Sequence record: OZ035792.1
DNA: 43,663 nt
Origin: Vectrevirus T205P5
Reading direction: 5' to 3' (one strand)
Below the pieces are notes generated by a model. The model searched no databases and was not told the DNA's origin. It saw only the letters and a list, made by a program, of their open reading frames with translations. The stretch's first letter is position 1. The number at the start of each line of letters is the position of its first letter. A program made the translations under genes and the position numbers. Positions 9,452-27,736 of the stretch are shown one piece after another.

Positions 9452-9602
9452 GGTAAAGGCTGGCACTAGTCAGCCTATCAAGGCGCAAACCAAGCTCTTT
9501 AACAATTTGGATGGTAGCTTCTTAGTCTGGATAGGTTAAACCTAGGAGATTCTCTTGAGTCTCCTATAATGTAACCTAACTAACTAAATGAGGATTAATA
9601 AC

Positions 9603-9959
9603 ATGGCTATGTCTAATATGACTTACTCTCAGGTTTACAACACCGCTCATGCTGCATTAGTTGAACGTATCTGGAATGATGCTATTGAGTGTATCGATAA
9701 CGCACATGATGCAATCCATGAGGTAGCGGACAGTGCTGTACCAATTTATTATGCTGACATCTTCTCAGTGATGGCGAGTGAAGGCATTGATCACTTCTTC
9801 GAAGACTCCGGCCTGATGCCAGATACTAGGGATGTAACGGTCGTACTACAAGCCCGTATTTATGAACAACTCACCATTGATTTATGGGAACGTGTTCAAG
9901 ATATGATTGTTGCGTACACCAATTACGCTGAGGATTCAGAAGAAGAAGAGGAAGAATAA
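9603..9959 (+). CDS. ocr: Ocr (gp0.3-like) DNA-mimic anti-restriction protein
   Basis: [47 protein letters not shown] closely matches T7 Ocr as recalled; polyacidic C-terminus; GAGGA RBS before the ATG at 9603. Confidence 0.88.
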
Positions 9960-11286: not shown

Positions 11287-13914
11287 ATGCAAGACTTACA
11301 CGCTATTCAACTTCAACTTGAAGAAGAAATGTTTAACGGCGGTATCCGTCGCTTTGAAGCGGACCAACAGCGCCAGATTGCATCCGGTAATGAATCAGAC
11401 ACGGCATGGAATCGCCGCTTATTGTCCGAGTTAATCGCGCCAATGGCTGAAGGTATTCAGGCATACAAGGAAGAGTATGAAGGTAAAAGAGGCCGTGCAC
11501 CGCGTGCATTAGCTTTCATTAACTGCGTAGAAAACGAAGTGGCAGCATATATCACGATGAAAATCGTTATGGATATGCTGAACACGGATGTAACCTTGCA
11601 GGCTATAGCCATGAATGTAGCTGACCGCATTGAGGACCAAGTACGTTTTAGCAAGCTGGAAGGTCACGCCGCCAAATACTTTGAAAAAGTTAAGAAGTCA
11701 CTTAAGGCAAGTAAGACTAAATCATATCGCCATGCGCACAACGTAGCGGTAGTGGCTGAGAAGTCAGTAGCTGACCGTGACGCTGATTTCTCCCGCTGGG
11801 AGGCATGGCCTAAAGACACCTTGCTGCAAATTGGGATGACCTTGCTTGAAATCTTAGAGAATAGCGTATTCTTCAACGGGCAACCTGTCTTCCTCCGCAC
11901 CTTGCGCACTAATGGCGGCAAACATGGTGTTTACTACCTACAGACTAGTGAACACGTAGGTGAGTGGATAACTGCATTTAAAGAACATGTAGCGCAACTT
12001 AGTCCAGCCTATGCACCTTGCGTTATTCCTCCGCGTCCGTGGGTATCACCCTTTAACGGTGGGTTTCATACTGAGAAAGTAGCAAGCCGTATTCGTCTGG
12101 TAAAAGGCAATCGTGAGCACGTCCGCAAGCTGACCAAAAAGCAAATGCCAGCGGTTTACAAGGCTGTTAACGCTTTGCAGGCGACTAAGTGGCAGGTTAA
12201 TAAAGAGGTTTTACAGGTTGTGGAGGACGTTATACGTCTAGACCTCGGCTATGGTGTACCTTCCTTTAAACCACTCATCGACCGTGAGAACAAGCCAGCT
12301 AATCCGGTGCCGTTAGAGTTCCAGCACCTGCGAGGCCGTGAACTGAAAGAAATGCTTACGCCGGAACAATGGCAAGCCTTTATCAACTGGAAAGGTGAAT
12401 GTACTAAGCTGTACACCGCTGAAACTAAGCGCGGAAGCAAATCGGCGGCAACCGTTCGCATGGTTGGTCAGGCCCGTAAATATAGCCAGTTCGACGCAAT
12501 CTACTTCGTGTATGCACTGGACAGCCGCAGCCGTGTATACGCGCAATCTAGCACACTCTCACCGCAATCAAATGACTTGGGCAAGGCCTTGCTCCGTTTT
12601 ACCGAAGGGCAGCGTCTTGATAGCGCTGAGGCGCTTAAGTGGTTTTTGGTGAACGGGGCTAATAACTGGGGTTGGGATAAGAAAACTTTTGACGTGCGCA
12701 CCGCTAACGTGCTGGATAGTGAATTTCAAGACATGTGCCGCGACATTGCAGCGGATCCGCTGACCTTCACTCAATGGGTAAATGCCGATTCCCCTTATGG
12801 CTTCCTTGCATGGTGCTTTGAATATGCGCGTTATCTGGATGCACTGGATGAAGGCACGCAAGACCAATTCATGACGCACCTACCCGTCCATCAAGACGGC
12901 AGTTGCTCTGGTATTCAGCACTATAGCGCGATGTTACGCGATGCAGTAGGTGCGAAAGCAGTAAACCTTAAGCCTTCTGACTCTCCTCAAGATATTTATG
13001 GTGCCGTTGCGCAGGTAGTAATTCAGAAGAATTATGCATACATGAATGCAGAGGATGCGGAAACCTTCACTTCTGGCAGCGTGACTTTAACAGGTGCGGA
13101 GCTGCGTAGTATGGCTAGTGCGTGGGATATGATAGGAATCACTCGCGGCCTGACCAAAAAGCCCGTAATGACACTACCTTATGGCAGCACACGTCTAACC
13201 TGCCGTGAGTCAGTGATTGATTATATCGTTGATTTAGAAGAAAAAGAGGCCCAACGGGCTATTGCGGAAGGGCGTACCGCCAATCCTGTACACCCTTTTG
13301 ATAATGACCGTAAGGACAGCCTGACACCTAGCGCAGCTTATAACTATATGACAGCTTTAATCTGGCCTTCTATTTCGGAAGTGGTTAAAGCTCCTATAGT
13401 GGCAATGAAAATGATTCGTCAGCTTGCACGTTTCGCAGCTAAAAGGAATGAAGGCTTAGAGTACACCTTGCCTACTGGCTTCATCTTGCAACAAAAGATA
13501 ATGGCGACAGATATGCTCCGCGTATCTACTTGCTTGATGGGAGAAATCAAGATGAGTCTACAGATTGAAACGGACGTAGTGGATGAAACGGCTATGATGG
13601 GCGCTGCTGCCCCTAACTTTGTGCACGGTCATGATGCCAGTCACCTTATCTTAACGGTCTGCGACCTTGTTGATAAAGGGATTACATCTATCGCAGTAAT
13701 TCATGATTCTTTTGGCACTCATGCAGGTCGCACCGCAGACCTACGTGATAGTCTAAGGGCAGAAATGGTGAAGATGTATCAAGGCCGTAACGCTCTGCAA
13801 AGCCTGTTAGATGAGCATGAAGAACGCTGGTTAGTAGACACCGGAATCCAAGTGCCAGAGCAAGGAGAGTTTGACCTTAACGAAATCTTAGTATCTGACT
13901 ATTGCTTCGCATAA
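11287..13914 (+). CDS. Single-subunit DNA-dependent RNA polymerase (T7 gene 1 family)
   Basis: 875 aa; matches T7 RNAP motifs as recalled (PWxxxx[25 protein letters not shown]-terminal DYCFA). Confidence 0.97.
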
Positions 13915-14371: not shown

Positions 14372-16360
14372 ATGGCTATTATTCAGAATGTACCGTGTCC
14401 TGCCTGTCAAAAGAATGGACATGATATTACTGGCAACCATCTTATGATATTTGAGGATGGCGCTGGTTACTGTAACCGTGGTCACTTCCATGATAATGGG
14501 AAGCCTTATTACCATAAGCCAGAGGGTGGTATCGAGATAACCGAATTGCCTATTACTGGCAATATCAAATATACACCCTCTCAATTCAAAGAAATGGAGA
14601 AGGAAGGGAAGATAAGCGACCCTAAGCTACGCGCCATCGCACTTGGTGGTATGCGTATGAAAGACCGTTGGGAGGTTATGAATGAGCAAGAAAGGGCAGA
14701 CCAAGAAGCAGAGTGGAAACTTGATGTTGAATGGTTCCTCACGCTTAAGCGTAAGAACCTTGTATCCCGTCACATTCGAGGTGACATCGCAGCAATGTAC
14801 GATGTGCGCGTTGGACACGATGAAGAGGGAAGAGTCAACCGTCACTATTATCCACGATATGAAAAGGGTGTGCTTGTTGGAGCAAAATGCCGGACGTTGC
14901 CGAAGGATTTTAAGTTCGGACACCTAGGTAAACTCTTTGGTATGCAAGACCTTTTCGGTATGAACACTTTGTCTCACGTGTTAGACAAGGGGAGACGAAA
15001 GGATTGCTTGCTTATTGTAGGCGGTGAACTTGATGCACTAGCAGCGCAGCAGATGCTCCTTGATTCTGCCAAGGGTACTAAGTGGGAGGGTCAGCCATAC
15101 CATGTATGGTCTGTCAACAAAGGCGAGTCTTGCCTTGAAGAGATAGTGCAGAACCGCGAGCATATCGCCCAATTCAAGAAGATTATATGGGGTTTTGATG
15201 GAGATGAGGTAGGGCAGAAGCAGAATCAGCAAGCGGCTCGCCTGTTTCCTGGCAAATCCTATATCCTTGAATATCCCTCTGGTTGCAAAGATGCTAACAA
15301 GGCATTGATGGCTGGCAAGGCTAAAGAGTTTGTAGATGCATGGTTTAATGCCAAGTCATCTGATGAAGTCTTTGGTAGCCAGATTAAATCTATCGCATCT
15401 CAAAGGGATAAGCTCAAGGCTGCACGTCCAGAGCAAGGACTATCATGGCCTTGGCCTAAGCTGAACAAGGTAACGCTAGGTATTCGTAAGAATCAGCTTA
15501 TCATTGTAGGTGCAGGGTCTGGTGTAGGTAAGACTGAGTTCCTTCGTGAAGTAGTTAAGCACCTCATTGAAGAACACGGTGAATCTGTAGGCATCATTTC
15601 TACAGAAGACCCGATGGTCAAGGTGTCCCGTGCTTTTATCGGCAAGTGGATTGATAAGCGTATTGAGTTACCGCCAACCAACGACCCGAAAGAAGATGGA
15701 TACCGTGAGGTGTTCGACTACACCGAGGAAGAAGCTAACGCCGCCATTGATTATGTAGCTGATACAGGTAAGCTGTTTGTAGCTGACCTAGAGGGTGACT
15801 ATTCGATGGAAAAGGTAGAGCAAACTTGCCTAGAGTTTGAGGCTATGGGCATTTCTAATATCATCATTGATAACTTAACGGGGATTAAATTAGATGAGCG
15901 TGCTTTTGGTGGGAAGGTTGGTGCACTTGATGAATGCGTCAAGCGGATTGGTACTATCAAAGACCGACACCCGGTTACTATATTCCTTGTATCACACCTT
16001 ACACGTCCTCCGGCAAACCGTACCCAACACGAAGAAGGTGGCGAAGTTATCCTTTCTGACTTCCGAGGCTCAGGCGCTATCGGATTCTGGGCATCTTACG
16101 CCTTGGGGATTGAGCGTAATACAAGAGCTGAAACGCTTGACGAAAGGACTACCACGTACATCTCATGTGTCAAAGACCGCGACCAAGGTATCTGGACTGG
16201 AACCAAGGTCATGCTTAAGGGTGACATTCAAACCGGACGTTTAATGGAACCACAAGCCCGTACTAAGTCATTTGACACCGGCGAAGCAAGGCAACAAGAA
16301 GTACCGGATTTACCGGACACTATAGAAGAGACTAACTTCGATGAAGAAAGTGAGTTCTGA
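14372..16360 (+). CDS. DNA primase/helicase (T7 gp4-like)
   Basis: N-terminal Cys4 zinc ribbon (CPACQ...CNRGH), TOPRIM-like VGGELDALA, Walker A GAGSGVGKTEF, acidic C-terminal tail ending EESEF. Confidence 0.95.
   Translation: MAIIQNVPCPACQKNGHDITGNHLMIFEDGAGYCNRGHFHDNGKPYYHKPEGGIEITELPITGNIKYTPSQFKEMEKEGKISDPKLRAIALGGMRMKDRWEVMNEQERADQEAEWKLDVEWFLTLKRKNLVSRHIRGDIAAMYDVRVGHDEEGRVNRHYYPRYEKGVLVGAKCRTLPKDFKFGHLGKLFGMQDLFGMNTLSHVLDKGRRKDCLLIVGGELDALAAQQMLLDSAKGTKWEGQPYHVWSVNKGESCLEEIVQNREHIAQFKKIIWGFDGDEVGQKQNQQAARLFPGKSYILEYPSGCKDANKALMAGKAKEFVDAWFNAKSSDEVFGSQIKSIASQRDKLKAARPEQGLSWPWPKLNKVTLGIRKNQLIIVGAGSGVGKTEFLREVVKHLIEEHGESVGIISTEDPMVKVSRAFIGKWIDKRIELPPTNDPKEDGYREVFDYTEEEANAAIDYVADTGKLFVADLEGDYSMEKVEQTCLEFEAMGISNIIIDNLTGIKLDERAFGGKVGALDECVKRIGTIKDRHPVTIFLVSHLTRPPANRTQHEEGGEVILSDFRGSGAIGFWASYALGIERNTRAETLDERTTTYISCVKDRDQGIWTGTKVMLKGDIQTGRLMEPQARTKSFDTGEARQQEVPDLPDTIEETNFDEESEF
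16307..16330 (+). promoter_or_regulatory. SP6-type phage RNAP promoter embedded in the 3' end of the primase/helicase gene
   Basis: GATTTACCGGACACTATAGAAGAG; encodes PDLPDTIEE. Confidence 0.7.
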
Positions 16361-16380
16361 TTAGTGTATTTATCAGGGCT

Positions 16381-16396
16381 TGTCTCACATGTGAGA
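16381..16396 (+). repeat. Conserved palindrome GTCTCAC-AT-GTGAGAC, copy 3 of 6 (extended stem 16377-16402)
   Basis: Flanks extend pairing to about 11 bp with one G-U wobble; lies after the helicase stop. Confidence 0.8.
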
Positions 16397-16436
16397 CAGG
16401 CTCTTATTAAGTACATTAAATAACTGGAGATTGATT

Positions 16437-17120
16437 ATGTATAACTTAGTGTTGAATGTAGGTGACTTTGTACGCAACATCAAGAAAGATTCAAGTCGCT
16501 ATCTTTGCCGTGGTGTTGTAACCTTTGTAGATGAGAACCTGTATTATGTAGAATATCGCAGTGGTGTTAAGCAATATTACCACAAGAAGACAGCACATAA
16601 ATATCTTGAAAAGATTGTAGAGATAAACAATCAATGTAAGTGCATACATGATGAGGTTTGCGATAAATGTGCTCGCCAGATGCTTAAGAATTTCCTAGCT
16701 CCTCTTTATTATGGTGCTGGTCCTCAAACACTAGCAGAGTACATGGCAGAAAAGAAAACCACACTCAAGAAAGAGCGTCGCAATGTAATCACTGGTAAGA
16801 CTCAAAGTGAGATGATTAAGCAATGTGGCACTGCATTAGGTGTTACACAGTTTAATACTCGTGCATTGGGTAAATCCACAGGACAAGCTATGGTAAAGAT
16901 TGGAGAAGCCATGATGCATCCAAATGTACCTGTACGAATCATGGATGTTGACCATGCAATCACAGAACACGGTACGCAACGACGTGTAATTAATAAGCAT
17001 TTTGCCGACACTATAGAAGGTATTATTCGTAAGCAAGAGTTGAAAGGTCTTCACATCTTGAATGGTGAAGAGTTACTGTACCTACCTATCGTTACTGAAG
17101 AAACATACGTGAATATCTAA
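16437..17120 (+). CDS. Hypothetical protein (228 aa) with Cys-rich segment
   Basis: GGAG RBS before the ATG at 16437; CKCIHDEVCDKC motif; contains an internal promoter. Confidence 0.55.
   Translation: MYNLVLNVGDFVRNIKKDSSRYLCRGVVTFVDENLYYVEYRSGVKQYYHKKTAHKYLEKIVEINNQCKCIHDEVCDKCARQMLKNFLAPLYYGAGPQTLAEYMAEKKTTLKKERRNVITGKTQSEMIKQCGTALGVTQFNTRALGKSTGQAMVKIGEAMMHPNVPVRIMDVDHAITEHGTQRRVINKHFADTIEGIIRKQELKGLHILNGEELLYLPIVTEETYVNI
16998..17020 (+). promoter_or_regulatory. SP6-type phage RNAP promoter embedded in coding sequence
   Basis: CATTTTGCCGACACTATAGAAGG; core GACACTATAGAAG is perfect; encodes FADTIEGI. Confidence 0.55.
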
Positions 17121-17130
17121 GGAGTTAATC

Positions 17131-17349
17131 ATGACTAAGGTATTAATTTATATGCGTGGACCTCATAAATGCTATGCAGTTGTAGCACCAAATGGTGTTA
17201 AGCCCTATAGAACTTCAAAAAGATTGGCATTAGTAGGTGCTAGTAGTAGTGCAAGTTTCCAAATGGAACTTTTTGGTCATTGGACTGAACGGCAATTCCG
17301 TGAGGATTTTAAAGTCATTGGCAGCTTCATGGTGAAACATGCAGAGTAA
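17131..17349 (+). CDS. Hypothetical protein (72 aa)
   Basis: AAGGAG RBS; ORF-track ORF in a coding-dense region. Confidence 0.5.
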   Translation: MTKVLIYMRGPHKCYAVVAPNGVKPYRTSKRLALVGASSSASFQMELFGHWTERQFREDFKVIGSFMVKHAE

Positions 17350-17516
17350 ACATAGTCTTAAAATGTTCGATGGTCATGAAGACCTGCAAGCCAAGATTAC
17401 TAACCAAGCCTTCCTGTTTGCACAGTTAACTATGGCTGAAGCAAAGAAGAATAGCCTGACGCGTGAACAGGTTATCAAGGAAAGTGAAGTGAAACGTAAG
17501 ATTCGCAGTCGATAAG
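17339..17516 (+). CDS. Small hypothetical protein (59 aa)
   Basis: ATG overlaps the previous gene end; terminates just before palindrome copy 4. Confidence 0.3.
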
Positions 17517-17525
17517 TCAAGGGTT

Positions 17526-17541
17526 GTCTCACGTGTGAGAC
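17526..17541 (+). repeat. Conserved palindrome GTCTCAC-GT-GTGAGAC, copy 4 of 6 (extended stem 17521-17545)
   Basis: Exact arms; flanks pair with one G-U wobble. Confidence 0.8.
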
Positions 17542-17567
17542 AGCCTTTCATCATATTGATTGGAGGT

Positions 17568-17675
17568 GCATTATGCCACGTGATTATGATTCTGATTGGG
17601 ACTATTATGACTCAATGAATCCAAAACCCGAACGTTCAGATGATTACTACGAAACAGAGGCAATGTATGAATACT
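17568..17675 (+). CDS. Small acidic ORF (35 aa), hypothetical
   Basis: GGAGGT RBS; overlaps the DNA polymerase start. Confidence 0.3.
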
Positions 17676-20213
17676 ATTGATTGGAAGAAGGAAGCGGAAG
17701 GGCGGATCCTAGTTATGGACGCCGAAGCAAAAGGCTTGCTTGATGCCATACGCTATGGTCATCGTGAAGATGTGCACATCATTTGCTGCATGGATTTACT
17801 CACCACTGAGGAGTTCCTATTCTTCGACCCATATGAGATGCGTGACCCTGAGGCAAGGGAGCGCCTGAAGGAGTGGGAAGGCCATCAAGACGGAACCTTG
17901 GTTGATGGTGTTAACTTCCTGAAGCATTGTGAAGCTATTGTGTCACAGAACTTCCTAGGGTATGACGGACTTCTCTTTGAGAAAGCATTCCCTGATATTT
18001 GGAAAGGCTTTAACTATACCGAGAAGCGCGGTAAGGGCAGACTCCGTGCTGACCTGTGTCCGGTGCGAGTCATGGATACGCTGGTGATGAGTCGCCTGTT
18101 AAACCCCGATAGACGCCTCCCTCCGCAAGCATATGCCAAAGGTATGGGTAACGTCGCCCCTCACTCAATTGAGGCGCACGGCATCCGTATAGGCCGCTAT
18201 AAACCGGAGAACGAGGACTGGTCTAAACTAACTGACCACATGGTTCACCGTGTACGTGAGGACGTGGCGATTGGTCGTGACTTGTTCCTCTGGCTCTTTA
18301 ACGGGGAATGGATGGAGCACAAACGCCGTGGCGTGAATAAACGCACTGGCCTAGGTATTGAGACAGCCTTCCACATGGAGTCCATTGTGGCGCTGGAGAT
18401 GAGCCGTCAGGCAGAGCGTGGATTCCGTCTGGATATTGACAAAGCTTTGGCCCGATGCGAAGAATTGGACGCTAAGATTGATGAGACAGTCGCAGCGTTC
18501 CGCCCTCACATGCCTATGCGTATCAAGTCTAAACCTTTTAAACCGGAAGAAAAGAATGAAGTATGCCAACGCGCAAATGAGTATGGAGCTAGCAACAATA
18601 TACCTACTGTCCTTGACCCCTCACACTTTCTTCATGCCGAGAGACGAGGAGATCGCAAGACAGTATGGAGTGTCACTACTAAGTCTGGTGATTGGTCGGC
18701 TAGTGTCAAGAAAGACTTTCCTCACCTTAGAGGAAACCGTAATGACACGCCAAGCATCAAGTGGATTGGCGCTTACTCGCCTGTTACTTTCGAAGAGATT
18801 CCCTTGGGTAACAGGGATACAGTTAAGCAAGTGCTCTATGATTATGGATGGAAAGGTGTTGAATTTAACGATACCGAGCAAGCGCATCTCGATGAGTATG
18901 GCGTATTACCAAAACCTTGGAGTGGAAAGATAAATGAAAAGTCTCTTACTTTATGGCAAGAGAGAGCCGCACGTGAAGGTAAAACAGTACCCGATTGGTG
19001 CTTGGGTATCGCTGCATGGTACATACTCGTATCCCGTCGTGGTCAGATACTTAACCGTGGTGACGTTGAAGCCTTCAACGAGAAGGGAACGTGGCCCTCG
19101 CAGGCTGGTGTACGAAAGTGTCGCGGCCTTGTACCTGTAGCATTCAACAAGGAGCTAGGAATCAATGCGCAGCAATACTACGAAAGGTACGGATGCTGGC
19201 CTACGTCAGACAAGGATGACGGGGAGTGGCGTGTTCCAGCTGTTGCTATTAGCATTGGCACTTCTACGTTCCGTATGCGTCATCGTAACGTGGTTAATAT
19301 TCCTGCCCGTGGCTTGTATCCTTTACGTGATTTATTCATAGCAGGTAAAGGCAAGCTAATCCTTGGTTGTGACGGTGCAGGTCTTGAACTGCGCGTCCTG
19401 TCTCACTTCATGAATGACCCTGAGTACCAAGAGATTGTATTGCATGGTGACATCCATACACATAACCAGATGAAGGCTGGTCTTCCTAAGCGTGACATGG
19501 CGAAGACGTTTATATACGCTTTCCTCTATGGCTCTGGTATAGCTAACCTTGCAGCAGTCTGCGGTGTTACTGAGGAAGAAATGAAGGAAGTTGTGGCAAG
19601 ATTCGAGATTGAACTACCGTCTCTTGCACGTCTTCGTGAGAATGTTATCGCACAAGGTAACAAGTTTGGCTACCTGCAAGCACCTGATGGGCATTGGGGT
19701 CGCATCCGCATGTCTGGTGGTGAACTTAAAGAGCACACGATGCTTAACGTATTACTCCAGATGACTGGCTCTTTGTGTATGAAATATGCATTAGTCAAGG
19801 CATTTGCAGTAATGCGCAAGGAAGGTGTAGCTTTGGATGCTATGGGAAATCCTTGTGGTGTGGCTAACGTGCATGATGAAATCCAGATGGAAGTTCCTGA
19901 AGAGGAGGTCTTGTATCTTAACTACGACCTACCTTTCACCTTAGATGGGTTCGAAACAGAGAAGGCTGCCGTGCAAGCAGTGTTCGATGCAGAGGAGAAA
20001 CGTGTTCATGTGGATTCTGAAGGACGTATGTGGTCCGCTGCAAACCTCGTTAGTGTTGATGCTGATGCTGGTGTATTGCATTGCCAGCGCCGTTATCACC
20101 GTGCAGGTCATATCATTGCCGACGCCATGACTTGGGCAGGGCAGTATCTGAAGATGCGTTGCCCGATGGCAGGCGAATATAAGATTGGCGCAAGTTGGAA
20201 GGAAACACACTGA
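17667..20213 (+). CDS. DNA polymerase, family A, with N-terminal 3'-5' exonuclease domain
   Basis: Motif A DGAGLELRVLSHF, motif B RDMAKTFIYAFLYGSG, motif C VHDE; AGAGG RBS before the internal ATG at 17667. Confidence 0.9.
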   Translation: MNTIDWKKEAEGRILVMDAEAKGLLDAIRYGHREDVHIICCMDLLTTEEFLFFDPYEMRDPEARERLKEWEGHQDGTLVDGVNFLKHCEAIVSQNFLGYDGLLFEKAFPDIWKGFNYTEKRGKGRLRADLCPVRVMDTLVMSRLLNPDRRLPPQAYAKGMGNVAPHSIEAHGIRIGRYKPENEDWSKLTDHMVHRVREDVAIGRDLFLWLFNGEWMEHKRRGVNKRTGLGIETAFHMESIVALEMSRQAERGFRLDIDKALARCEELDAKIDETVAAFRPHMPMRIKSKPFKPEEKNEVCQRANEYGASNNIPTVLDPSHFLHAERRGDRKTVWSVTTKSGDWSASVKKDFPHLRGNRNDTPSIKWIGAYSPVTFEEIPLGNRDTVKQVLYDYGWKGVEFNDTEQAHLDEYGVLPKPWSGKINEKSLTLWQERAAREGKTVPDWCLGIAAWYILVSRRGQILNRGDVEAFNEKGTWPSQAGVRKCRGLVPVAFNKELGINAQQYYERYGCWPTSDKDDGEWRVPAVAISIGTSTFRMRHRNVVNIPARGLYPLRDLFIAGKGKLILGCDGAGLELRVLSHFMNDPEYQEIVLHGDIHTHNQMKAGLPKRDMAKTFIYAFLYGSGIANLAAVCGVTEEEMKEVVARFEIELPSLARLRENVIAQGNKFGYLQAPDGHWGRIRMSGGELKEHTMLNVLLQMTGSLCMKYALVKAFAVMRKEGVALDAMGNPCGVANVHDEIQMEVPEEEVLYLNYDLPFTLDGFETEKAAVQAVFDAEEKRVHVDSEGRMWSAANLVSVDADAGVLHCQRRYHRAGHIIADAMTWAGQYLKMRCPMAGEYKIGASWKETH

Positions 20214-20329
20214 TGGATAGGCTTGACATTGTTTACCTATTCTTCACTTTCTTTCTTACACTCCTTATGCTTGCTTGTTATGGGAGTATGAGACTAGATA
20301 TACCTGATGAAGAAGAGGGTTACGACTAA
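20213..20329 (+). CDS. Small membrane protein (38 aa), hypothetical
   Basis: ATG overlaps the polymerase stop; hydrophobic VYLFFTFFLTLLMLACYG. Confidence 0.3.
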   Translation: MDRLDIVYLFFTFFLTLLMLACYGSMRLDIPDEEEGYD

Positions 20330-20427
20330 TGCAAACTGCTTTTATTATTCTTGGTATCATATTATTTATGGTAGTATTCTGGGCTTTCTCTGGCATTGAC
20401 CCAGATTGTGATGGTAACTACGACTGA
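20329..20427 (+). CDS. Small membrane protein (32 aa), hypothetical
   Basis: Start overlaps the upstream stop; hydrophobic FIILGIILFMVVFWAF. Confidence 0.25.
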   Translation: MQTAFIILGIILFMVVFWAFSGIDPDCDGNYD

Positions 20428-20486
20428 GTTATACTCAAGGTCACTTACGAGTGGCCTTTATGAATAACTTAACTGGAGGAAATATA

Positions 20487-21044
20487 ATGGATGAACTGAA
20501 CACTAAGATGCTCAAGAAAGTTTATAATCTTGTATATAGTATCACGGGCCTACAATTCTACCCTGTAGGCGGTGCGGTTCGTGACACCCTGTACGGATTA
20601 ACACCTAAAGACTATGATATGGTGTTGCCTGTAGGGTCTATGGCAGATTCTCAGGCGCACGAAATCATGGAAAATATCTCTGAAGAGATGGCAATTATGG
20701 GATTTAGTACCAAACTCTACCAATCATACGGTATCAATTTAGGTTATGAAATCAACCCTACCTCTTTTCAGGCTATGTTCCTTAGCTGCATGAAAGTGCA
20801 GATGCGTAATTGCCAACTTGATTTGCTTCTTTCTAAGGCTGAAACCATCCAAGATCATGTACGTAAGCACGATTGCAATATGAATATGGTGTGGTTCGAT
20901 GGTAAAGATATCAAGTGGGAGCACGGCGGTGTTACTCCTTTCGTTCCTGTGTTAGAGTTCAACCCTGACGGATGTGATCGTCGCATTGCTTACATGGACA
21001 AGAAGCGCCATGAACTTATCCGTCACAAATTAATGCATCTTTGA
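20487..21044 (+). CDS. Nucleotidyltransferase, CCA-adding/poly(A) polymerase head-domain family (pol beta superfamily)
   Basis: YPVGGAVRDTLYGLTPKDYDMVL matches the catalytic head motif of class II tRNA nucleotidyltransferases (E. coli CCA: [23 protein letters not shown]); only about 185 aa, so head domain only; GGAGGA RBS before the internal ATG. Confidence 0.6.
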   Translation: MDELNTKMLKKVYNLVYSITGLQFYPVGGAVRDTLYGLTPKDYDMVLPVGSMADSQAHEIMENISEEMAIMGFSTKLYQSYGINLGYEINPTSFQAMFLSCMKVQMRNCQLDLLLSKAETIQDHVRKHDCNMNMVWFDGKDIKWEHGGVTPFVPVLEFNPDGCDRRIAYMDKKRHELIRHKLMHL

Positions 21045-21068
21045 TTTACCGGACACTATAGAAGGAAG
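21043..21068 (+). promoter_or_regulatory. SP6-type phage RNAP promoter
   Basis: GATTTACCGGACACTATAGAAGGAAG; followed by an AT-rich TAGGT-repeat leader. Confidence 0.8.
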
Positions 21069-21130
21069 TCCTAGGTAATCTAGGTTTATAAGGTAGTATA
21101 GGTAATTAAGTAAATATAGGAGATATAAAC

Positions 21131-21508
21131 ATGTCTATGGTAACTACTCTGGTATTTGTAGCTCAATACTTTCGTGGTCTGGCTAATAAGTTCAAGTCCA
21201 AGGCTATCAAAGCTATTGAGTCTCGCATCGAGGCAGTACAGGCAGAGCAAGTTAAAGTTGAAGAACATCGTAGTTCTCAAATGATTGACTGCCATAACCG
21301 CTACTATGCATCTCGTGATGACCTTAATGCACGCCAAGTCAAAGAGGTTGAAGAGATGCTGGCACGTCACCAGCAAGAGCGCGACAGCCTGAAAGCTGAA
21401 TTTGAAGAGAACAAGGCATCCATCGCCCTTGTACATCAAGCCGCATCTGACAACCTGAAGAAAGAGATTGTTATGCTGGAAATTGAGTTAGACAACCTGA
21501 CCAAATAA
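21131..21508 (+). CDS. Hypothetical coiled-coil protein (125 aa)
   Basis: AGGAGA RBS; heptad-like charged sequence. Confidence 0.55.
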   Translation: MSMVTTLVFVAQYFRGLANKFKSKAIKAIESRIEAVQAEQVKVEEHRSSQMIDCHNRYYASRDDLNARQVKEVEEMLARHQQERDSLKAEFEENKASIALVHQAASDNLKKEIVMLEIELDNLTK

Positions 21509-21530
21509 TTACTGGACACTATAGAACAAT
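21507..21530 (+). promoter_or_regulatory. SP6-type phage RNAP promoter (TATAGAAC variant)
   Basis: AATTACTGGACACTATAGAACAAT. Confidence 0.7.
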
Positions 21531-21585
21531 AGGTCGGCTTAGTTCGGCCTATGATTGTGTAGTGTAACAATAGGAGACTAAATAA

Positions 21586-22392
21586 ATGGCACGTGGTGAT
21601 TTTGATTTTGGTGCTCAGGTTACTAAAGCTGAAGGTAAGGTTTTTAAGAACCCTGAAGTTGGTGATCATGAAGCAGTAATCTCTGGCATCATTCATGTGG
21701 GTTCCTTCCAAGATATCTTTAAGAAAGGTAATACCACTGAAGTTAAGAAGCCAGCAAACTTTGTTCTTGTTAAGATTGTACTGATGGGTGACGATGACAA
21801 GAACGAAGATGATTCTCGCATGGAACAGTGGATGGCTGTGCCTCTTAAGTCTGGTGACAAGGCAACCTTGACTAAGTTCCTGAATGCAGTTGACCCTAAA
21901 GAGCTGCTTGGTGGTTTCGATGACTTCATCGGTGAATGCCTGACTGCAACTATGGTTGGCTCTGGAGACAAGAATGATGATGGTACTTTCAAGTATGTTA
22001 ACTGGAAAGGCTTTGGCGGTATGCCTGATAAGTTGAAGAAGCTTGTACTGGCTCAGGTAGAAGAGGAAGGTCTGTCTATGACAGGTCATATCACCTTCGA
22101 CAAGCTGACCAAAGAAATCCTTGATGACATCCCAGCTAACTTGGTGCGTCAATACTTCCTTAATGAAACACCTCGTGGTAAGAACCTGTCTGTTGCTGGT
22201 TCTCACGTAGAAGCAATCATTAAAGCTGCTCGTGAAGAAGACCCAGAATGGAAGAAGGCTAAGAAGAAAGATGACGAGGATGCTACTCCAGCTAATCGTA
22301 AATCTCTGGATACTGGTGAGTCTGTTCCACAGGAAGTACCTGAAGCAGAAGACACTCCTGCACCGGAGATGGATGAGGACGCGGAATATTAA
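21586..22392 (+). CDS. Acidic-tailed protein (268 aa), possible single-stranded DNA-binding protein
   Basis: High-expression codon usage; C-terminal acidic tail ending EMDEDAEY, like the polymerase-docking tails of T7 gp2.5 and gp4; no direct sequence match recognised. Confidence 0.4.
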   Translation: MARGDFDFGAQVTKAEGKVFKNPEVGDHEAVISGIIHVGSFQDIFKKGNTTEVKKPANFVLVKIVLMGDDDKNEDDSRMEQWMAVPLKSGDKATLTKFLNAVDPKELLGGFDDFIGECLTATMVGSGDKNDDGTFKYVNWKGFGGMPDKLKKLVLAQVEEEGLSMTGHITFDKLTKEILDDIPANLVRQYFLNETPRGKNLSVAGSHVEAIIKAAREEDPEWKKAKKKDDEDATPANRKSLDTGESVPQEVPEAEDTPAPEMDEDAEY

Positions 22393-22401
22393 GGAGAAAG
22401 G

Positions 22402-22620
22402 ATGAAAGTACAAATCGTAACCCTGCACTGCAAGAAAGGTATCACAACGCTCGGAGGTGGCACTTTCCACTCTTTCTCCGAAGGGGAGATTTATGCTGAC
22501 CTGCACTACATCTGGCGCGACGGACAGCACGTGGTGAACTACAGCGACCCAGCTACGGGGAAACGCCACGGCGTATCGCTTCCGGCGCATGACATTGCTC
22601 AGGTGAACACAGTTTTATAA
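22402..22620 (+). CDS. Hypothetical protein (72 aa)
   Basis: AAGGAGA RBS; ORF-track ORF. Confidence 0.5.
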   Translation: MKVQIVTLHCKKGITTLGGGTFHSFSEGEIYADLHYIWRDGQHVVNYSDPATGKRHGVSLPAHDIAQVNTVL

Positions 22621-22621
22621 A

Positions 22622-22637
22622 GTCTCACGTGTGAGAC
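22622..22637 (+). repeat. Conserved palindrome GTCTCAC-GT-GTGAGAC, copy 5 of 6
   Basis: Exact arms; directly after a stop codon and 15 nt upstream of a strong promoter. Confidence 0.8.
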
Positions 22638-22652
22638 AAATCGGTGTCCGGT

Positions 22653-22676
22653 ATTTACTGGACACTATAGAAGAGA
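22653..22676 (+). promoter_or_regulatory. SP6-type phage RNAP promoter (consensus)
   Basis: TATTTACTGGACACTATAGAAGAG. Confidence 0.85.
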
Positions 22677-22725
22677 AGAATTTTAATCGGCGATAATGCC
22701 ATAACCAACAAAAGGAGAATTTAAT

Positions 22726-23097
22726 ATGTTCAAGATTGAAACTATCGTAAACCGTGTTGTTAAAGGTGCTGCTCTGGTATCCGTTGAGTCTTTCATTATC
22801 GTCGATGAAGCTGATCAACTGGTAGCTGGTACTAAGGCTTACGATACCCGTGAAGAGGCTCAGGCTAAGATTGACAGCATGGGTAACTTCGCTGCTGGTC
22901 TGGAGTTCGCTCGTGCTTGCTTCCCTGAGCAGGCTGACAAAGCTCAGATTGGTAAGGCTAATATCGTAGCTGAATATCTGGATTGGGTTGCTGCTGGTAA
23001 ACCAGTGAAAGAAGTTAAGGCTGCTGAAGAAGCTGAAGCTCCAGCAGAAGAAGTAGCTGCACCGGAAACTCCGGTAAGCGAAGAGGAAGAATTTTGA
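22726..23097 (+). CDS. Highly expressed small acidic-tail protein (123 aa), unknown function
   Basis: AAGGAG RBS; strong codon bias; own consensus promoter upstream and terminator downstream; C-terminus ends VSEEEEF. Confidence 0.65.
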   Translation: MFKIETIVNRVVKGAALVSVESFIIVDEADQLVAGTKAYDTREEAQAKIDSMGNFAAGLEFARACFPEQADKAQIGKANIVAEYLDWVAAGKPVKEVKAAEEAEAPAEEVAAPETPVSEEEEF

Positions 23098-23214: not shown

Positions 23215-23454
23215 ATGCCGACTATTGAAGAACGTATCGTTTTGGACACTTACTTTGACTATAAGACCCTTATGCATGTCGGAGTTGCGTATGACTTTAA
23301 TAGCCATGAGGTGTATGTAAGGGTGGAGCAAAGAGATAAATCTCGCCTCATGCAGAACTTATACGAGAAAGTGTCCTCCTTAATGAAGGGGTGGCCTACA
23401 TGTCAAGACCAAACTTCAACTTCGGAGCTACAGTCTCGGAGGACAGCAATTTAA
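23215..23454 (+). CDS. Hypothetical protein (79 aa)
   Basis: GGAGAA RBS; its 3' end overlaps the exonuclease start in another frame. Confidence 0.3.
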   Translation: MPTIEERIVLDTYFDYKTLMHVGVAYDFNSHEVYVRVEQRDKSRLMQNLYEKVSSLMKGWPTCQDQTSTSELQSRRTAI

Positions 23455-24431
23455 TATTGTGGCCGACTGAGGGTAATCGAATCGCTTTAATAGATGCCGA
23501 TATGTTACCTTACATCGTCGGGTATACAATCAGTGACATGACTTATGTACGAGCCACAACTCGTGTTAAGTCAGGACAAGTCCCATCAATCAAAGATACC
23601 CCTGAGTGTAAGCAAGCGTGTGACCGTGTGAACTCCTTGCTTAACTCTTGGGTGTATGCAGCAGAGTGTGATGCAGCTAAGTTATTCATGACGAAATCAG
23701 AAGCTAACTTCCGTGTTCGCCTAGCCTTCACCAAGCCTTATAAAGGTCAACGTAAGACCGAGAAGCCTCCGTTCTTCTATGAATTGCGAGAGCATCTCTT
23801 AGAGGTTCATGGTGCAATCTTGGCAGATGGAGAAGAGGCTGATGACCTCATGAGCATTGCACAATGGGACAGCCACCGCCGCTTCCAGCAAGATACAGGT
23901 AACGAGTTCCCTATCGGTAGTCCAGAGCATAAAGCATTCTCTGATACTTGCATCGTTTCCTTGGATAAGGATTTGATGATTGTTCCCGGTTGGCACCTTC
24001 AGCCGGGACAAGAGAAGAAATGGGTAGAGCCTATGGGTTGGCTTGAGTTACGCCGTAAGGCTAATGGTCAGGTTAAAGACCTTAAAGGTGCTGGCCTCAT
24101 GTTTCATTATGCACAGATGATTATCGGTGATGATATTGATAACTATGCTGGCATACCTGGACGTGGTGCTAAATACGCCTATGACCTTCTCAAAGATTGT
24201 AAGACAGAGAAAGAGTTGTACATGGCAGTGCTTGGTGCTTACAAGGCTAAGTTCGGACATGGACAAGTTAAGATTAAGAATTACCGAGGTGGTTATCGTA
24301 TCGGCAAGGCTTTTGACCTGATGCTCGAATGTGGTCGCCTAGCTCACATGGCAAGATTCAAAGGTGATATATGGCGAGCCGATAAGAACCCAATCTTGTG
24401 GGGAGATGATGCGGAATGGTTAGTAAATTAA
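23400..24431 (+). CDS. 5'-3' exonuclease (T7 gp6-like, FEN family)
   Basis: LIDADMLPYIVGY and GEEADDLMSI acidic metal-binding clusters typical of FEN/T7 gp6 exonucleases; start could instead be the GTG at 23391. Confidence 0.8.
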   Translation: MSRPNFNFGATVSEDSNLILWPTEGNRIALIDADMLPYIVGYTISDMTYVRATTRVKSGQVPSIKDTPECKQACDRVNSLLNSWVYAAECDAAKLFMTKSEANFRVRLAFTKPYKGQRKTEKPPFFYELREHLLEVHGAILADGEEADDLMSIAQWDSHRRFQQDTGNEFPIGSPEHKAFSDTCIVSLDKDLMIVPGWHLQPGQEKKWVEPMGWLELRRKANGQVKDLKGAGLMFHYAQMIIGDDIDNYAGIPGRGAKYAYDLLKDCKTEKELYMAVLGAYKAKFGHGQVKIKNYRGGYRIGKAFDLMLECGRLAHMARFKGDIWRADKNPILWGDDAEWLVN

Positions 24432-26431: not shown

Positions 26432-26605
26432 ATGGAAGGTAAACTGTATAGAGGGTACTTCGGTAACTTATATAAAGTAAGCTCTCGCGGTTTTGTATTG
26501 ACCTCTGATGATGAAGGTGCAATGTGGCACCTAAGTGCATATGGTTCTAACTTAGCATACTTTAAAGAGGCAATAGTCAAAGGTGTGATGAAGGAGGTGA
26601 AATGA
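26432..26605 (+). CDS. Small hypothetical protein
   Basis: GAGGA RBS; translationally coupled between neighbouring genes. Confidence 0.4.
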   Translation: MEGKLYRGYFGNLYKVSSRGFVLTSDDEGAMWHLSAYGSNLAYFKEAIVKGVMKEVK

Positions 26606-27549
26606 ACATCTTCCAATTCCTAGGTCTTCCAGAAGACCACCGCAATCATCCATTCATGCTGGTGAAGCATCGCGGTGAAGTTCCTGAGAAGAAACTTACT
26701 TTTCCATGTTATGCACAGGTGAAACGAGATGGAATATTCAGTGCTGTTGTGGTGCGCAATGATGGTGCTGTTGCCGTCTTTGGTCGTACTGGTAAGAAGC
26801 TCGCAAATGTTGAAGCCTTGGAAAAGACATTTAGTGTATTTCCTGTCGGGTTGTATCTTGGTGAGTTGCAATCTATGGCTGTTGATGTTTATCTTGAAGC
26901 TCTGTCAGGAGTGGTAAACCCTAATCGTACAGAGCCACTTGACTTCATAGGCCAGCAGATTAAAGACAACCTGTATATCGACTTCTTCGATATGTTAACT
27001 ATTAAGGCATTCCATGATGGATTCACTGATGTTTCTTATCTCAAACGTTACGATGCTTTACATCGTCGTATCGGCACTCATCTTAGCGGGTGCAACGCTA
27101 TCCTTCCTATCACTCCTTGCCATAATGAGCGAGAAGTTGAAGCGTTTGCGCAAGAGCAAATAGATGCAGGACGTGAGGGTGCTGTATTCAAACTGGACTG
27201 CGATTATGAAGCAGGACACAAAGGTTATCGTCAGACTAAAGAAGTCCGTAAGGTAACTTATGACCTTACTTGTATTGGCTTTGAAGAAGGTAAAGGTAAA
27301 TACAAAGGTAAGGTAGCTAACCTCATTTTCAAGTGGAAAGGGGGCAAGACAATCAAAGCTATGCTCGGTAAAGGGTGGACTCATGCAGATGCAGAACAGA
27401 TGTTCCACGACATTAAACATGGTGGACGATTGAATGTCATTGGTAAAATCTTTGAAGTCAAAGGTCTTCAGGATTCAAGCAAGGGCAACATTCGTCTGCC
27501 CAAAGCGGGAGAATTAAGACATGACAAAGATGAACCAGATTTCTTTTGA
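26602..27549 (+). CDS. ATP-dependent DNA ligase (T7 gp1.3-like)
   Basis: Motif I KRDG in CYAQVKRDGIFSAVVV, motif IV-like EGAVFKL, C-terminal OB-domain motif LPKAGELRHDK. Confidence 0.8.
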   Translation: MNIFQFLGLPEDHRNHPFMLVKHRGEVPEKKLTFPCYAQVKRDGIFSAVVVRNDGAVAVFGRTGKKLANVEALEKTFSVFPVGLYLGELQSMAVDVYLEALSGVVNPNRTEPLDFIGQQIKDNLYIDFFDMLTIKAFHDGFTDVSYLKRYDALHRRIGTHLSGCNAILPITPCHNEREVEAFAQEQIDAGREGAVFKLDCDYEAGHKGYRQTKEVRKVTYDLTCIGFEEGKGKYKGKVANLIFKWKGGKTIKAMLGKGWTHADAEQMFHDIKHGGRLNVIGKIFEVKGLQDSSKGNIRLPKAGELRHDKDEPDFF

Positions 27550-27736
27550 TAGCATGAAGGCAACTCGTGCAGTTGAGGTAGCAGAAGCTATCTTTGAAAC
27601 TTTATCCTGTGGCATGGAAGTGCCATATACTTTACTTGCTGATGCAGAAGAACTTGGTCTTTCTGTAGAAGCTATCCAAGAGAAGGTTGACGAATTATAT
27701 GGTACAGACGAAGAAGAAACCGACGATTTCATTTGA
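27521..27736 (+). CDS. Small acidic hypothetical protein (71 aa)
   Basis: GGGAGAA RBS; overlaps the ligase 3' end; acidic C-terminus EEETDDFI. Confidence 0.4.
   Translation: MTKMNQISFDSMKATRAVEVAEAIFETLSCGMEVPYTLLADAEELGLSVEAIQEKVDELYGTDEEETDDFI

What the first reader, a model, noticed from the sequence alone, without database searches (positions are those of the whole stretch)
14372..23097. Three proteins share acidic C-terminal tails ending in an aromatic residue
The primase/helicase (...EESEF), the 268-aa protein at 21586-22392 (...EMDEDAEY) and the 123-aa protein at 22726-23097 (...EEEEF) all end this way. In T7 this tail on gp4 and gp2.5 docks onto a basic patch of the DNA polymerase. 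The shared feature suggests both unknown proteins are replisome partners and that one is the functional SSB, although neither resembles T7 gp2.5 in sequence.
Basis: inference. Interest (0 to 1): 0.45.

Follow-up and report, generated by a model that had tools for sequence, protein, structure and literature searches.

The report
Shared docking tails on phage replication proteins
In this SP6/K1-5-like phage, the primase-helicase, an unannotated protein that is very probably the phage's single-stranded-DNA-binding protein, and a small unknown protein all end in the same conserved, co-evolving acidic tail with a final aromatic residue, which points to a T7-style docking system with one extra client.

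Summary
Three of about 42 genes end in an acidic tail with a terminal F/Y, against 0.1 expected (P about 2e-4). The feature persists in orthologues down to 30% identity and changes in step within lineages.

The window is a permuted genome of a Vectrevirus (SP6/K1-5 group).

- **268-aa protein (K1-5 gene 16).** It is "hypothetical" in every annotated GenBank record listed. The model shows an OB-fold core, a helical domain and a disordered linker ending in MDEDAEY. The best structural match is the SSB-like PrgE, followed by ssDNA-binding OB folds. Distant relatives end in DDDIPF, the bacterial SSB tip. It is very probably the phage SSB, and it is not a T7 gp2.5 homologue.
- **123-aa protein (SP6 gp20).** It is not an OB fold and may be YegP/DUF1508-like. 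Its function is unknown, and its tail tip is invariant among close relatives.
- **Receptor.** It is unproven. T7's front basic patch is absent from this polymerase.

Other findings:
- The helicase and SSB tails are alike over about 31 residues.
- The SSB and the 5'-3' exonuclease share a co-varying N-terminal FDFGA-type peptide.
- The ligase's similar ending is not conserved.

The parts
14372..16360 (+). Primase/helicase (662 aa), counterpart of T7 gp4
   Evidence: phrog_239 DNA primase/helicase, E 6e-188. Pfam Toprim_2 and DnaB_C.
16265..16357 (+). C-terminal tail module of the primase/helicase (residues 632-662, KSFDTGEARQQEVPDLPDTIEETNFDEESEF)
   Evidence: An acidic tip with a terminal F/Y is kept in almost all orthologues. 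The module is alike over about 31 aa with the tail of the 268-aa protein: BLOSUM62 local score 69, reached by 0 of 5000 shuffles.
17640..20213 (+). Family A DNA polymerase (857 aa); candidate receptor of the tails by analogy with T7 gp5 (inferred, not shown)
   Evidence: Pfam DNA_pol_A and phrog_17. It is 35% identical to T7 gp5 over the palm/fingers. The T7 front basic patch is absent. The thumb segment aligned to the T7 thioredoxin-binding region is 111 aa with net charge +5.
21586..22392 (+). 268-aa protein, the probable phage SSB (K1-5 gene 16; phrog_862, 'unknown function')
   Evidence: AF2 model and fold searches. Family alignment. Labelled hypothetical in every annotated record listed, out of 215 phage records with a match.
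21601..21621 (+). N-terminal peptide FDFGAQV of the 268-aa protein (residues 6-12), disordered in the model but conserved
   Evidence: F6, G9 and A10 are invariant. pLDDT is below 50 for residues 1-18. The same motif, co-varying by lineage, sits at the N-terminus of the exonuclease.
21661..22017 (+). Predicted OB-fold core (residues 26-144)
22300..22389 (+). C-terminal tail module of the 268-aa protein (residues 239-268, KSLDTGESVPQEVPEAEDTPAPEMDEDAEY)
   Evidence: pLDDT is below 50 for residues 229-258 and 266-268. Net charge of residues 229-268 is -13. An E/D-[YF] ending is kept in 27 of 28 family members of A1, with DFS in two of them, and 49 of 77 wider relatives end in an aromatic residue.
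22726..23097 (+). 123-aa protein (SP6 gp20 homologue; phrog_4429, 'unknown function'), third carrier of the tail
   Evidence: Homologues are found throughout the SP6-like group. The AF2 model is poor (pLDDT 54): beta-hairpin 3-26 and helices 42-65 and 79-89.
23011..23094 (+). Tail of the 123-aa protein (residues 96-123): variable A/E/P-rich linker plus invariant tip SEEEEF
   Evidence: The linker varies in length and sequence, while S118 and E120-F123 are invariant in 22 sequences. Net charge is -10. pLDDT is below 50 for residues 91-123.
23391..24431 (+). 5'-3' (FEN-type) exonuclease whose N-terminal extension carries FNFGATV (nt 23415-23435)
   Evidence: phrog_107 exonuclease, E 7e-74. The N-terminal motif is shared with the 268-aa protein in nearly all loci and co-varies with it.

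Best explanation
The three tails are real docking peptides of an SP6-type replisome that works on the T7 principle with different parts.

1. The primase/helicase tail is the counterpart of the T7 gp4 tail.
2. The 268-aa protein is the phage's single-stranded-DNA-binding protein. It has an OB-fold core that binds ssDNA, a helical domain, a disordered linker and an acidic tip ending in Tyr. A conserved N-terminal peptide may link neighbouring monomers, as in PrgE.
3. The 123-aa protein is a small accessory factor, possibly with a YegP/DUF1508-like domain. It carries the same tip on a flexible linker, so it is recruited to, or competes for, the same acceptor site.

The acceptor is most likely the phage DNA polymerase. 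It is not the T7 'front basic patch', which is missing here. It may be the basic thumb insertion that occupies the place of T7's thioredoxin-binding domain.

Shown here: the tails, their conservation and co-variation, the OB fold, and the absence of the T7 patch. Inferred: ssDNA binding, the identity of the acceptor, and the role of the 123-aa protein.
For: - **Enrichment.** Three tails are observed against 0.105 expected, P 1.7e-4. Non-coding ORFs show none.
- **Conservation.** Orthologues in 42 contigs keep an acidic tip with an aromatic end down to 30% identity.
- **Co-variation.** In L034, L038 and L042 the helicase and the SSB both end in QEF. Same-genome tails are more alike than cross-genome tails: primase/helicase versus 268-aa P 1.5e-4, versus 123-aa P 0.02.
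- **Shared tail module.** The helicase and SSB tails are alike over about 31 aa, beyond composition.
- **Published background.** T7 tails bind gp5 (PMC12339929). DUF669/N4-type SSBs have acidic tails, and their phages lack other SSBs (PMC4889955). The tip of the HK620 SSB is needed for partner binding (PMC5928155).
Against: - No binding data of any kind exist for these proteins.
- The T7 front basic patch (K587, K589, R590, R591) lies in an insertion absent from this polymerase, so the acceptor is a guess.
- The 268-aa family has no significant sequence match to gp2.5, N4 SSB, HK620 SSB, Pfam or PDB.
- The core of the 268-aa protein has net charge -5.
- The 123-aa model is of low confidence, and its tail is lost or altered in some distant lineages (L031, L033, L037).
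- The tails of the 268-aa and 123-aa proteins do not co-vary significantly with each other (P 0.15).
- The permutation tests ignore phylogeny and therefore overstate significance.
Confidence: 0.6

Rival explanations
1. The tails act mainly as intramolecular or intermolecular DNA mimics that shield the proteins' own DNA-binding surfaces. Their likeness reflects this common electrostatic job, not a shared protein acceptor.
For: From established knowledge, the T7 gp2.5 tail competes with ssDNA for its own binding cleft. The tails here are strongly acidic: -13, -10 and -8.
Against: A pure charge shield does not need a precisely placed aromatic residue, nor a coordinated shift of that residue in all three proteins of one lineage. 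The core of the 123-aa protein is acidic (-3) and shows no predicted DNA-binding fold. This explanation is not exclusive of the main one.
Confidence: 0.15
2. The tails imitate the host SSB C-terminal tip and recruit or titrate host SSB-interacting proteins, with the 123-aa protein acting as a decoy.
For: Distant relatives of the 268-aa protein end in DDDIPF, DDEIPF or DDEVPF, the bacterial SSB tip. The 123-aa protein is a small acidic protein with an exposed tip.
Against: The window's tips (EESEF, EDAEY, EEEEF) lack the I-P-F of the host motif. The tips co-vary with the phage's own primase/helicase tail. That protein is not expected to need host SSB partners.
Confidence: 0.1
3. The 123-aa protein is unrelated to replication, for example an inhibitor of a host nuclease or defence protein, and its tail resembles the other two only by composition.
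For: T7 encodes small host-directed proteins at the equivalent position between polymerase and exonuclease (gp5.5, gp5.7, gp5.9). The tail of the 123-aa protein shares only its tip with the others. The tail is missing or changed in L031, L033 and L037.
Against: SEEEEF is invariant while the linker varies. The terminal residue follows the lineage-specific changes of the helicase tail (Y in L025-27, F shifted in L039 and L041). The gene stays next to the SSB gene from enterobacterial to Vibrio, Marinomonas and Pseudomonas phages.
Confidence: 0.12
4. The pattern is a chance or compositional coincidence with no function.
For: The tails are short and of low complexity. The ligase shows that a similar ending can occur without being conserved.
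Against: P is 1.7e-4 within the genome. The feature is conserved to 30% identity, and changes are coordinated.
Confidence: 0.02

Closest known systems
Bacteriophage T7 replisome: acidic, Phe-terminated tails of gp4 (helicase-primase) and gp2.5 (SSB) docking on gp5 DNA polymerase
   Same: Both are Autographiviridae with homologous primase/helicase and family A polymerase. Both have disordered acidic tails with an aromatic last residue on the helicase and on an OB-fold SSB. In T7 exactly these two proteins carry the feature.
   Different: The SSB is not a gp2.5 homologue. A third protein carries the tail. The helicase and SSB tails share a 31-aa module. The T7 front basic patch is absent from the polymerase. 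A second, N-terminal motif is shared by the SSB and the exonuclease.
DUF669 / N4-type phage SSBs (N4 gp45, HK620 SSB)
   Same: These are diverged OB-fold phage SSBs with acidic tails ending in an aromatic residue, in phages without another SSB (PMC4889955), and the tip is needed for partner binding (PMC5928155). Foldseek links the 268-aa model to DUF669-annotated viral proteins at E about 2e-5.
   Different: There is no significant sequence or profile match to N4 SSB or HK620 SSB or to Pfam DUF669. That Pfam test is insensitive, because HK620 SSB and N4 SSB themselves match no Pfam family in this copy.
PrgE of plasmid pCF10 (PDB 8s4s)
   Different: Identity is 15%. PrgE is only 144 aa. In the window protein, the helical domain, the long acidic linker and the phage replication context lie outside the aligned region.
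Bacterial SSB C-terminal tip (DDDIPF) as an interaction hub
   Same: The architecture is the same: OB core, disordered linker and acidic tip with terminal Phe. Distant relatives of the 268-aa protein carry this exact tip.
   Different: In bacteria one protein presents the tip to many partners. Here three different proteins present similar tips, presumably to one acceptor. The window's tips lack I-P-F.
UPF0339 / DUF1508 (YegP-like) small proteins
   Different: No test reaches significance, and the model is of low confidence. The family has no known function. No UPF0339 member is known to me (from my own knowledge) to carry an acidic aromatic tail.

Membership tests
T7-type tail/polymerase docking system | Disordered acidic C-terminal tail with an aromatic last residue on both the helicase-primase and the SSB | tested here: met
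   Conserved across 42 loci.
T7-type tail/polymerase docking system | Front basic patch of the polymerase (T7 K587, K589, R590, R591) as acceptor | tested here: not met
   MAFFT alignment puts the T7 patch in a T7-only insertion. All 18 SP6-like polymerases have a gap there. The BLAST pairing of R688/R690 falls on the conserved DG..GR.R segment next to the patch; identifying that segment as the generic family A motif rests on my own knowledge.
T7-type tail/polymerase docking system | Basic thumb insertion (thioredoxin-binding domain loops) as second acceptor | tested here: inconclusive
   A 111-aa segment aligns to T7 residues 250-345, and window residues 290-400 have net charge +5. There is no evidence of thioredoxin binding or tail binding.
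T7-type tail/polymerase docking system | Physical, aromatic-dependent binding of the tails to the polymerase | not testable with these tools
   This needs biochemistry or complex prediction.
T7 gp2.5-like SSB (Pfam SBB_T7 / Enc34_ssDNA-bd) | Sequence or profile similarity to gp2.5 | tested here: not met
   hhalign E 0.62. There is no Pfam hit, while gp2.5 itself hits SBB_T7 at 1e-89.
T7 gp2.5-like SSB (Pfam SBB_T7 / Enc34_ssDNA-bd) | Closest fold is gp2.5 / Enc34 SSB | tested here: not met
OB-fold single-stranded-DNA-binding proteins (general) | OB-fold core | tested here: met
OB-fold single-stranded-DNA-binding proteins (general) | Preferential binding of ssDNA | not testable with these tools
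   Gel shift or fluorescence anisotropy is needed.
DUF669 / N4-type phage SSB | Match to Pfam DUF669 or to N4 / HK620 SSB profiles | tested here: inconclusive
   There is no match, but the positive controls HK620 SSB and N4 SSB also match no Pfam family. Fold-level hits to DUF669-annotated BFVD models have E 2.4e-5 and 5.9e-5. There is a weak sub-threshold NCBIfam hit, NF046043, E 9e-4.
DUF669 / N4-type phage SSB | Acidic C-terminal tail, and no other recognisable SSB in the genome | tested here: met
   Tail. None of the 18 other window proteins scanned matches an SSB family. Not every ORF of the window was scanned.
Bacterial SSB-Ct hub | Tip D-D-D-I-P-F | tested here: not met
   The window tips are EESEF, EDAEY and EEEEF. 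Only distant relatives carry DDDIPF-type tips.
UPF0339 / DUF1508 (YegP-like), for the 123-aa protein | Match to the family profile or fold | tested here: inconclusive

The most novel reading that the evidence does not exclude
SP6-like phages organise their replisome with two portable short peptides instead of one.

1. An acidic, aromatic C-terminal tip is shared by the primase/helicase, a non-gp2.5 SSB and a small YegP-like protein. That small protein acts as a competitive regulator of the polymerase's docking site.
2. An N-terminal FD[FY]G peptide is shared by the SSB and the 5'-3' exonuclease. With it, the exonuclease docks on SSB filaments by imitating the SSB's own neighbour-contact peptide.

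The Pseudomonas phage lineage in which all three tips carry the Phe before the last residue would be a natural re-specification of the acceptor pocket.
Probability: 0.25. Interest if true: 0.7.

Novelty: new variant of a known kind. Interest (0 to 1): 0.5.

Why it matters
SP6/K1-5-like phages are widely used: SP6 RNA polymerase is a standard reagent, and K1-specific and Klebsiella phages are candidates for therapy. Even so, their SSB is annotated as "hypothetical" in every annotated GenBank record listed, out of 215 with a match, and in PHROGs.

Assigning gene 16 (K1-5 numbering) as the SSB fills a gap in the replication module. It also provides a second, non-homologous model of the T7 docking principle.

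A third tail-bearing protein and a second shared peptide suggest that replisome wiring by short linear motifs is richer than in T7. The natural variants offer ready-made specificity experiments: tips all ending in Y, or all with the F shifted.

The SSB could also matter for bacterial defence systems that sense phage SSBs.

Tried and rejected
- **Ligase (26602-27549...DEPDFF) as a fourth client: rejected.** The ending follows directly on ...ELRHDK, which from my own knowledge of ATP-dependent ligases is nucleotidyltransferase motif VI. It contains basic residues, and the last residue is V, A, E, Q or aromatic in orthologues.
- **71-aa ORF (27521-27736...DEEETDDFI): rejected.** The end is acidic, but no aromatic residue is conserved there.
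- **T7 front basic patch as acceptor: rejected**. An initial BLAST pairing was misleading.
- **Sequence searches for the 268-aa protein.** Searches against Pfam, PDB, NCBIfam, gp2.5, N4 SSB and HK620 SSB gave nothing significant.
- **Searches for the 123-aa protein.** Searches against PDB, Pfam and PHROGs gave nothing. Its AF2 model is poor, so the fold search is only a lead.
- **Literature.** No paper in the held library deals with the SP6-group SSB or these tails. The SP6 genome paper is not held.
- **Supplement of Kazlauskas et al. 2016.** It is not held, so I could not check whether they had already listed the SP6 protein.
- **Loose motif [FL][DN]xG.** It occurs 20 times in the window's genes and is not specific on its own.


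Full report
**What the window is.** The region is 96.7% identical to Escherichia phage vB-Eco-KMB47 and matches many Vectrevirus records. The window is about the size of these 44-45 kb genomes, and its gene order is circularly permuted: the SP6-type RNA polymerase lies at 11287-13914, and all genes are on the + strand. The replication module reads as follows:
- primase/helicase, 14372-16360
- 229-aa unknown
- two small ORFs
- family A DNA polymerase, 17640-20213
- nucleotidyltransferase
- 125-aa coiled-coil protein
- 268-aa unknown, 21586-22392
- 72-aa unknown
- 123-aa unknown, 22726-23097
- FEN-type 5'-3' exonuclease, 23391-24431
- endonuclease VII
- phosphoesterase
- nucleotide kinase-like protein
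- ATP-dependent ligase, 26602-27549

**Checking the observation.** Only four of the 245 ORFs of at least 40 aa on both strands combine an aromatic last residue with at least 3 acidic residues in the last 8. All four are replication genes. With a stricter motif (no K/R), the frequency of such 8-mers inside the window's own proteins predicts 0.105 C-termini among 42 genes. Three are seen, P = 1.7e-4. T7 has exactly two such proteins, gp2.5 and gp4.

**Conservation and co-variation.** A scan of viral contigs with the 268-aa family returned 42 loci with 30-100% identity. In these loci the orthologues of the primase/helicase and of the 268-aa protein keep an acidic tip with a terminal F/Y almost everywhere. 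The 123-aa protein keeps it wherever BLAST finds a homologue.

The changes are coordinated:
- In L025-27 all three proteins end in Y.
- In L034, L038 and L042 the helicase and the 268-aa protein both end in QEF.

Permutation tests show that tails from the same genome are more alike than tails from different genomes. For primase/helicase versus the 268-aa protein P is 1.5e-4. Versus the 123-aa protein it is 0.02. For the 268-aa versus the 123-aa protein it is 0.15. These tests ignore shared ancestry, so they overstate significance. The coordinated shift in one lineage is the stronger argument.

From memory of the T7 literature, the position of the terminal Phe of gp2.5 is critical. That would make a simultaneous shift in three proteins hard to explain without a shared acceptor.

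In loci where BLAST missed the 123-aa homologue, a small ORF just downstream of the SSB-like gene aligns with it. It usually carries an acidic tip (ADEDF, EEAETF), but the tip is lost or altered in L031, L033 and L037.

**The 268-aa protein.** It belongs to phrog_862, "unknown function". It is "hypothetical protein" in every annotated record listed, out of 215 phage records with a match, and is gene 16 of K1-5. Pfam, PDB sequences and NCBIfam give nothing significant.

Foldseek against BFVD finds uncharacterised proteins of other phages, including Pseudomonas phage P3_CHA, Ralstonia phage RSJ2, Acinetobacter phage vB_AbaP_B3 and Xanthomonas phage Xp10. It also finds DUF669-annotated proteins (E about 2e-5) and one annotated SSB.

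A search of 1.84 billion representatives with the family profile finds only 94 relatives. All 77 that were aligned fall in phrog_862, and two weakly match SSB-annotated PHROGs. Of these 77, 49 end in an aromatic residue, and many of the distant ones end in DDDIPF, DDEIPF, DDEVPF or DDDLPF, the bacterial SSB tip.

One such relative sits in the same synteny: primase/helicase, polymerase, SSB-like gene, small ORF, FEN exonuclease. There the helicase ends DPGF and the SSB-like protein ends DEVPF.

Published work supports this reading:
- Kazlauskas et al. proposed that DUF669/N4-type proteins are diverged OB-fold SSBs with acidic tails, in phages that lack other SSBs (PMC4889955).
- HK620 SSB was confirmed experimentally, and its last six residues are required for partner binding (PMC5928155).
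- DUF669-containing proteins were noted in the replication regions of three Aeromonas autographiviruses, one of them SP6-like (PMC9145550).

I could not show membership of DUF669 by sequence. The Pfam test is insensitive, however, because HK620 SSB and N4 SSB themselves match no Pfam family here. I conclude that this protein is very probably the phage SSB (about 0.8) and is not a gp2.5 homologue.

**The 123-aa protein.** It is the homologue of SP6 gp20 and belongs to phrog_4429, unknown. Among close relatives the first 95 residues are nearly invariant, the A/E/P-rich linker varies in length and sequence, and the tip SEEEEF is invariant. That is the architecture of a tethered docking peptide.

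The AF2 model is poor (pLDDT 54). It shows a beta-hairpin followed by helices and is not an OB fold. Three weak leads point to a YegP/DUF1508 (UPF0339) domain:
- one source names a homologue DUF1508;
- hhalign aligns residues 21-52 with the corresponding part of YegP at E 0.07;

That family has no known function. My best guess is an accessory factor that is brought to, or competes for, the acceptor site used by the helicase and the SSB.

**The acceptor.** In T7 the tails bind gp5, at the front basic patch K587, K589, R590 and R591 (PMC12339929) and, from my own knowledge of the T7 literature, at the thioredoxin-binding domain. The window polymerase is 35% identical to gp5 in the palm and fingers. 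A multiple alignment shows that the T7 patch lies in a T7-only insertion, where all SP6-like polymerases have a gap. The conserved R688 and R690 belong to the conserved DG..GR.R segment, which from my own knowledge I take to be the generic family A motif. The thumb segment that aligns with the T7 thioredoxin-binding region is 111 aa with net charge +5. It is a candidate and nothing more.

**Further findings.**
1. The helicase tail (KSFDTGEARQQEVPDLPDTIEETNFDEESEF) and the SSB tail (KSLDTGESVPQEVPEAEDTPAPEMDEDAEY) are alike over about 31 residues. The local score is 69, reached by none of 5000 composition-preserving shuffles. In the SP6-like core group the two tails are therefore a shared module, not just a shared tip.
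2. The disordered but conserved N-terminus of the SSB (FDFGAQV...VFKNPEVG) recurs at the N-terminus of the exonuclease (FNFGATV...ILWPTEG). Only these two ORFs in the window have F[DN][FY]G[AG].
   - The two peptides co-vary by lineage. Examples are GFDYGVDKDELPS with GFDYGVAPEELTS, FDYGGEVAETAS with FDYGGEVSEKEV, and FNYGTEE with FNYGCKEE. No permutation out of 20,000 reached the observed value.
   - In one distant lineage both peptides are absent, and in another both are changed in parallel.
   - PrgE uses its N-terminal tail to contact the neighbouring monomer on ssDNA (PMC11137577). By analogy, the SSB peptide may mediate filament contacts, and the exonuclease may use a copy of it to dock on SSB. 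This is speculation.

**Rejected.** The ligase's ...DEPDFF follows directly on ...ELRHDK (by my recollection, ligase motif VI), and its last residue is not conserved. The acidic end of the 71-aa ORF has no conserved aromatic residue.

**Verdict.** This is a new variant of the known T7/SSB-type tail docking system: it has a non-homologous SSB, a third client, a shared 31-aa tail module and a second shared peptide. The acceptor site and all binding remain to be shown.

Noticed in passing
window 21601-21621 and 23415-23435: The N-termini of the 268-aa SSB-like protein (FDFGAQV) and of the 5'-3' exonuclease (FNFGATV) share a motif that is conserved and co-varies across 42 loci. In distant lineages it is absent from both proteins or changed in both. 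It may be a second docking peptide.
   Followed up: partly
window 16265-16357 and 22300-22389: The primase/helicase tail and the SSB tail are alike over about 31 residues (KS[FL]DTGE...QEVP...DExxE[FY]), beyond what composition explains. An FDxG box persists in the helicase C-terminal linker even in distant loci.
   Followed up: partly
This looks like a coordinated re-specification.
   Followed up: partly
proteins P0195, P0228, P0246, P0251 and others (relatives of window 21586-22392): Distant members of the 268-aa family end in DDDIPF or DDEIPF, the bacterial SSB tip. This suggests that these phages couple to host SSB partners.
   Followed up: partly
window 26602-27549: The ATP-dependent DNA ligase ends ...RHDKDEPDFF, which superficially resembles the tails. 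The final residue is not conserved in orthologues.
   Followed up: yes
window 27521-27736 and 9588-9959: Two further proteins have very acidic ends without a conserved terminal aromatic residue: a 71-aa unknown (...DEEETDDFI) and the Ocr-like anti-restriction protein (...SEEEEEE).
   Followed up: partly
L010 (SP6 genome, 43769 bp): The SP6 primase/helicase ends ...NTQEFNG, whereas its closest relatives end ...NTQEF. This could be a real two-residue extension or a sequence difference at the stop codon.
   Followed up: no
window 21131-21508: PHROGs and some GenBank records call the 125-aa protein a 'polysaccharide chain length determinant'. The match is a weak coiled-coil similarity (NCBIfam 21 bits against a cut-off of 279), so the name is probably wrong.
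   Followed up: partly
window 20451-21044: A 197-aa nucleotidyltransferase with a poly(A) polymerase/CCA-adding head domain lies between the polymerase and the SSB gene. Its role in an SP6-like phage is unclear.
   Followed up: no
window 16431-17120: The 229-aa unknown between the helicase and the polymerase ends ...IVTEETYVNI. An acidic stretch with Y near the end is conserved in L025-27 (...VTEEVYVE). It was not examined further.
   Followed up: no
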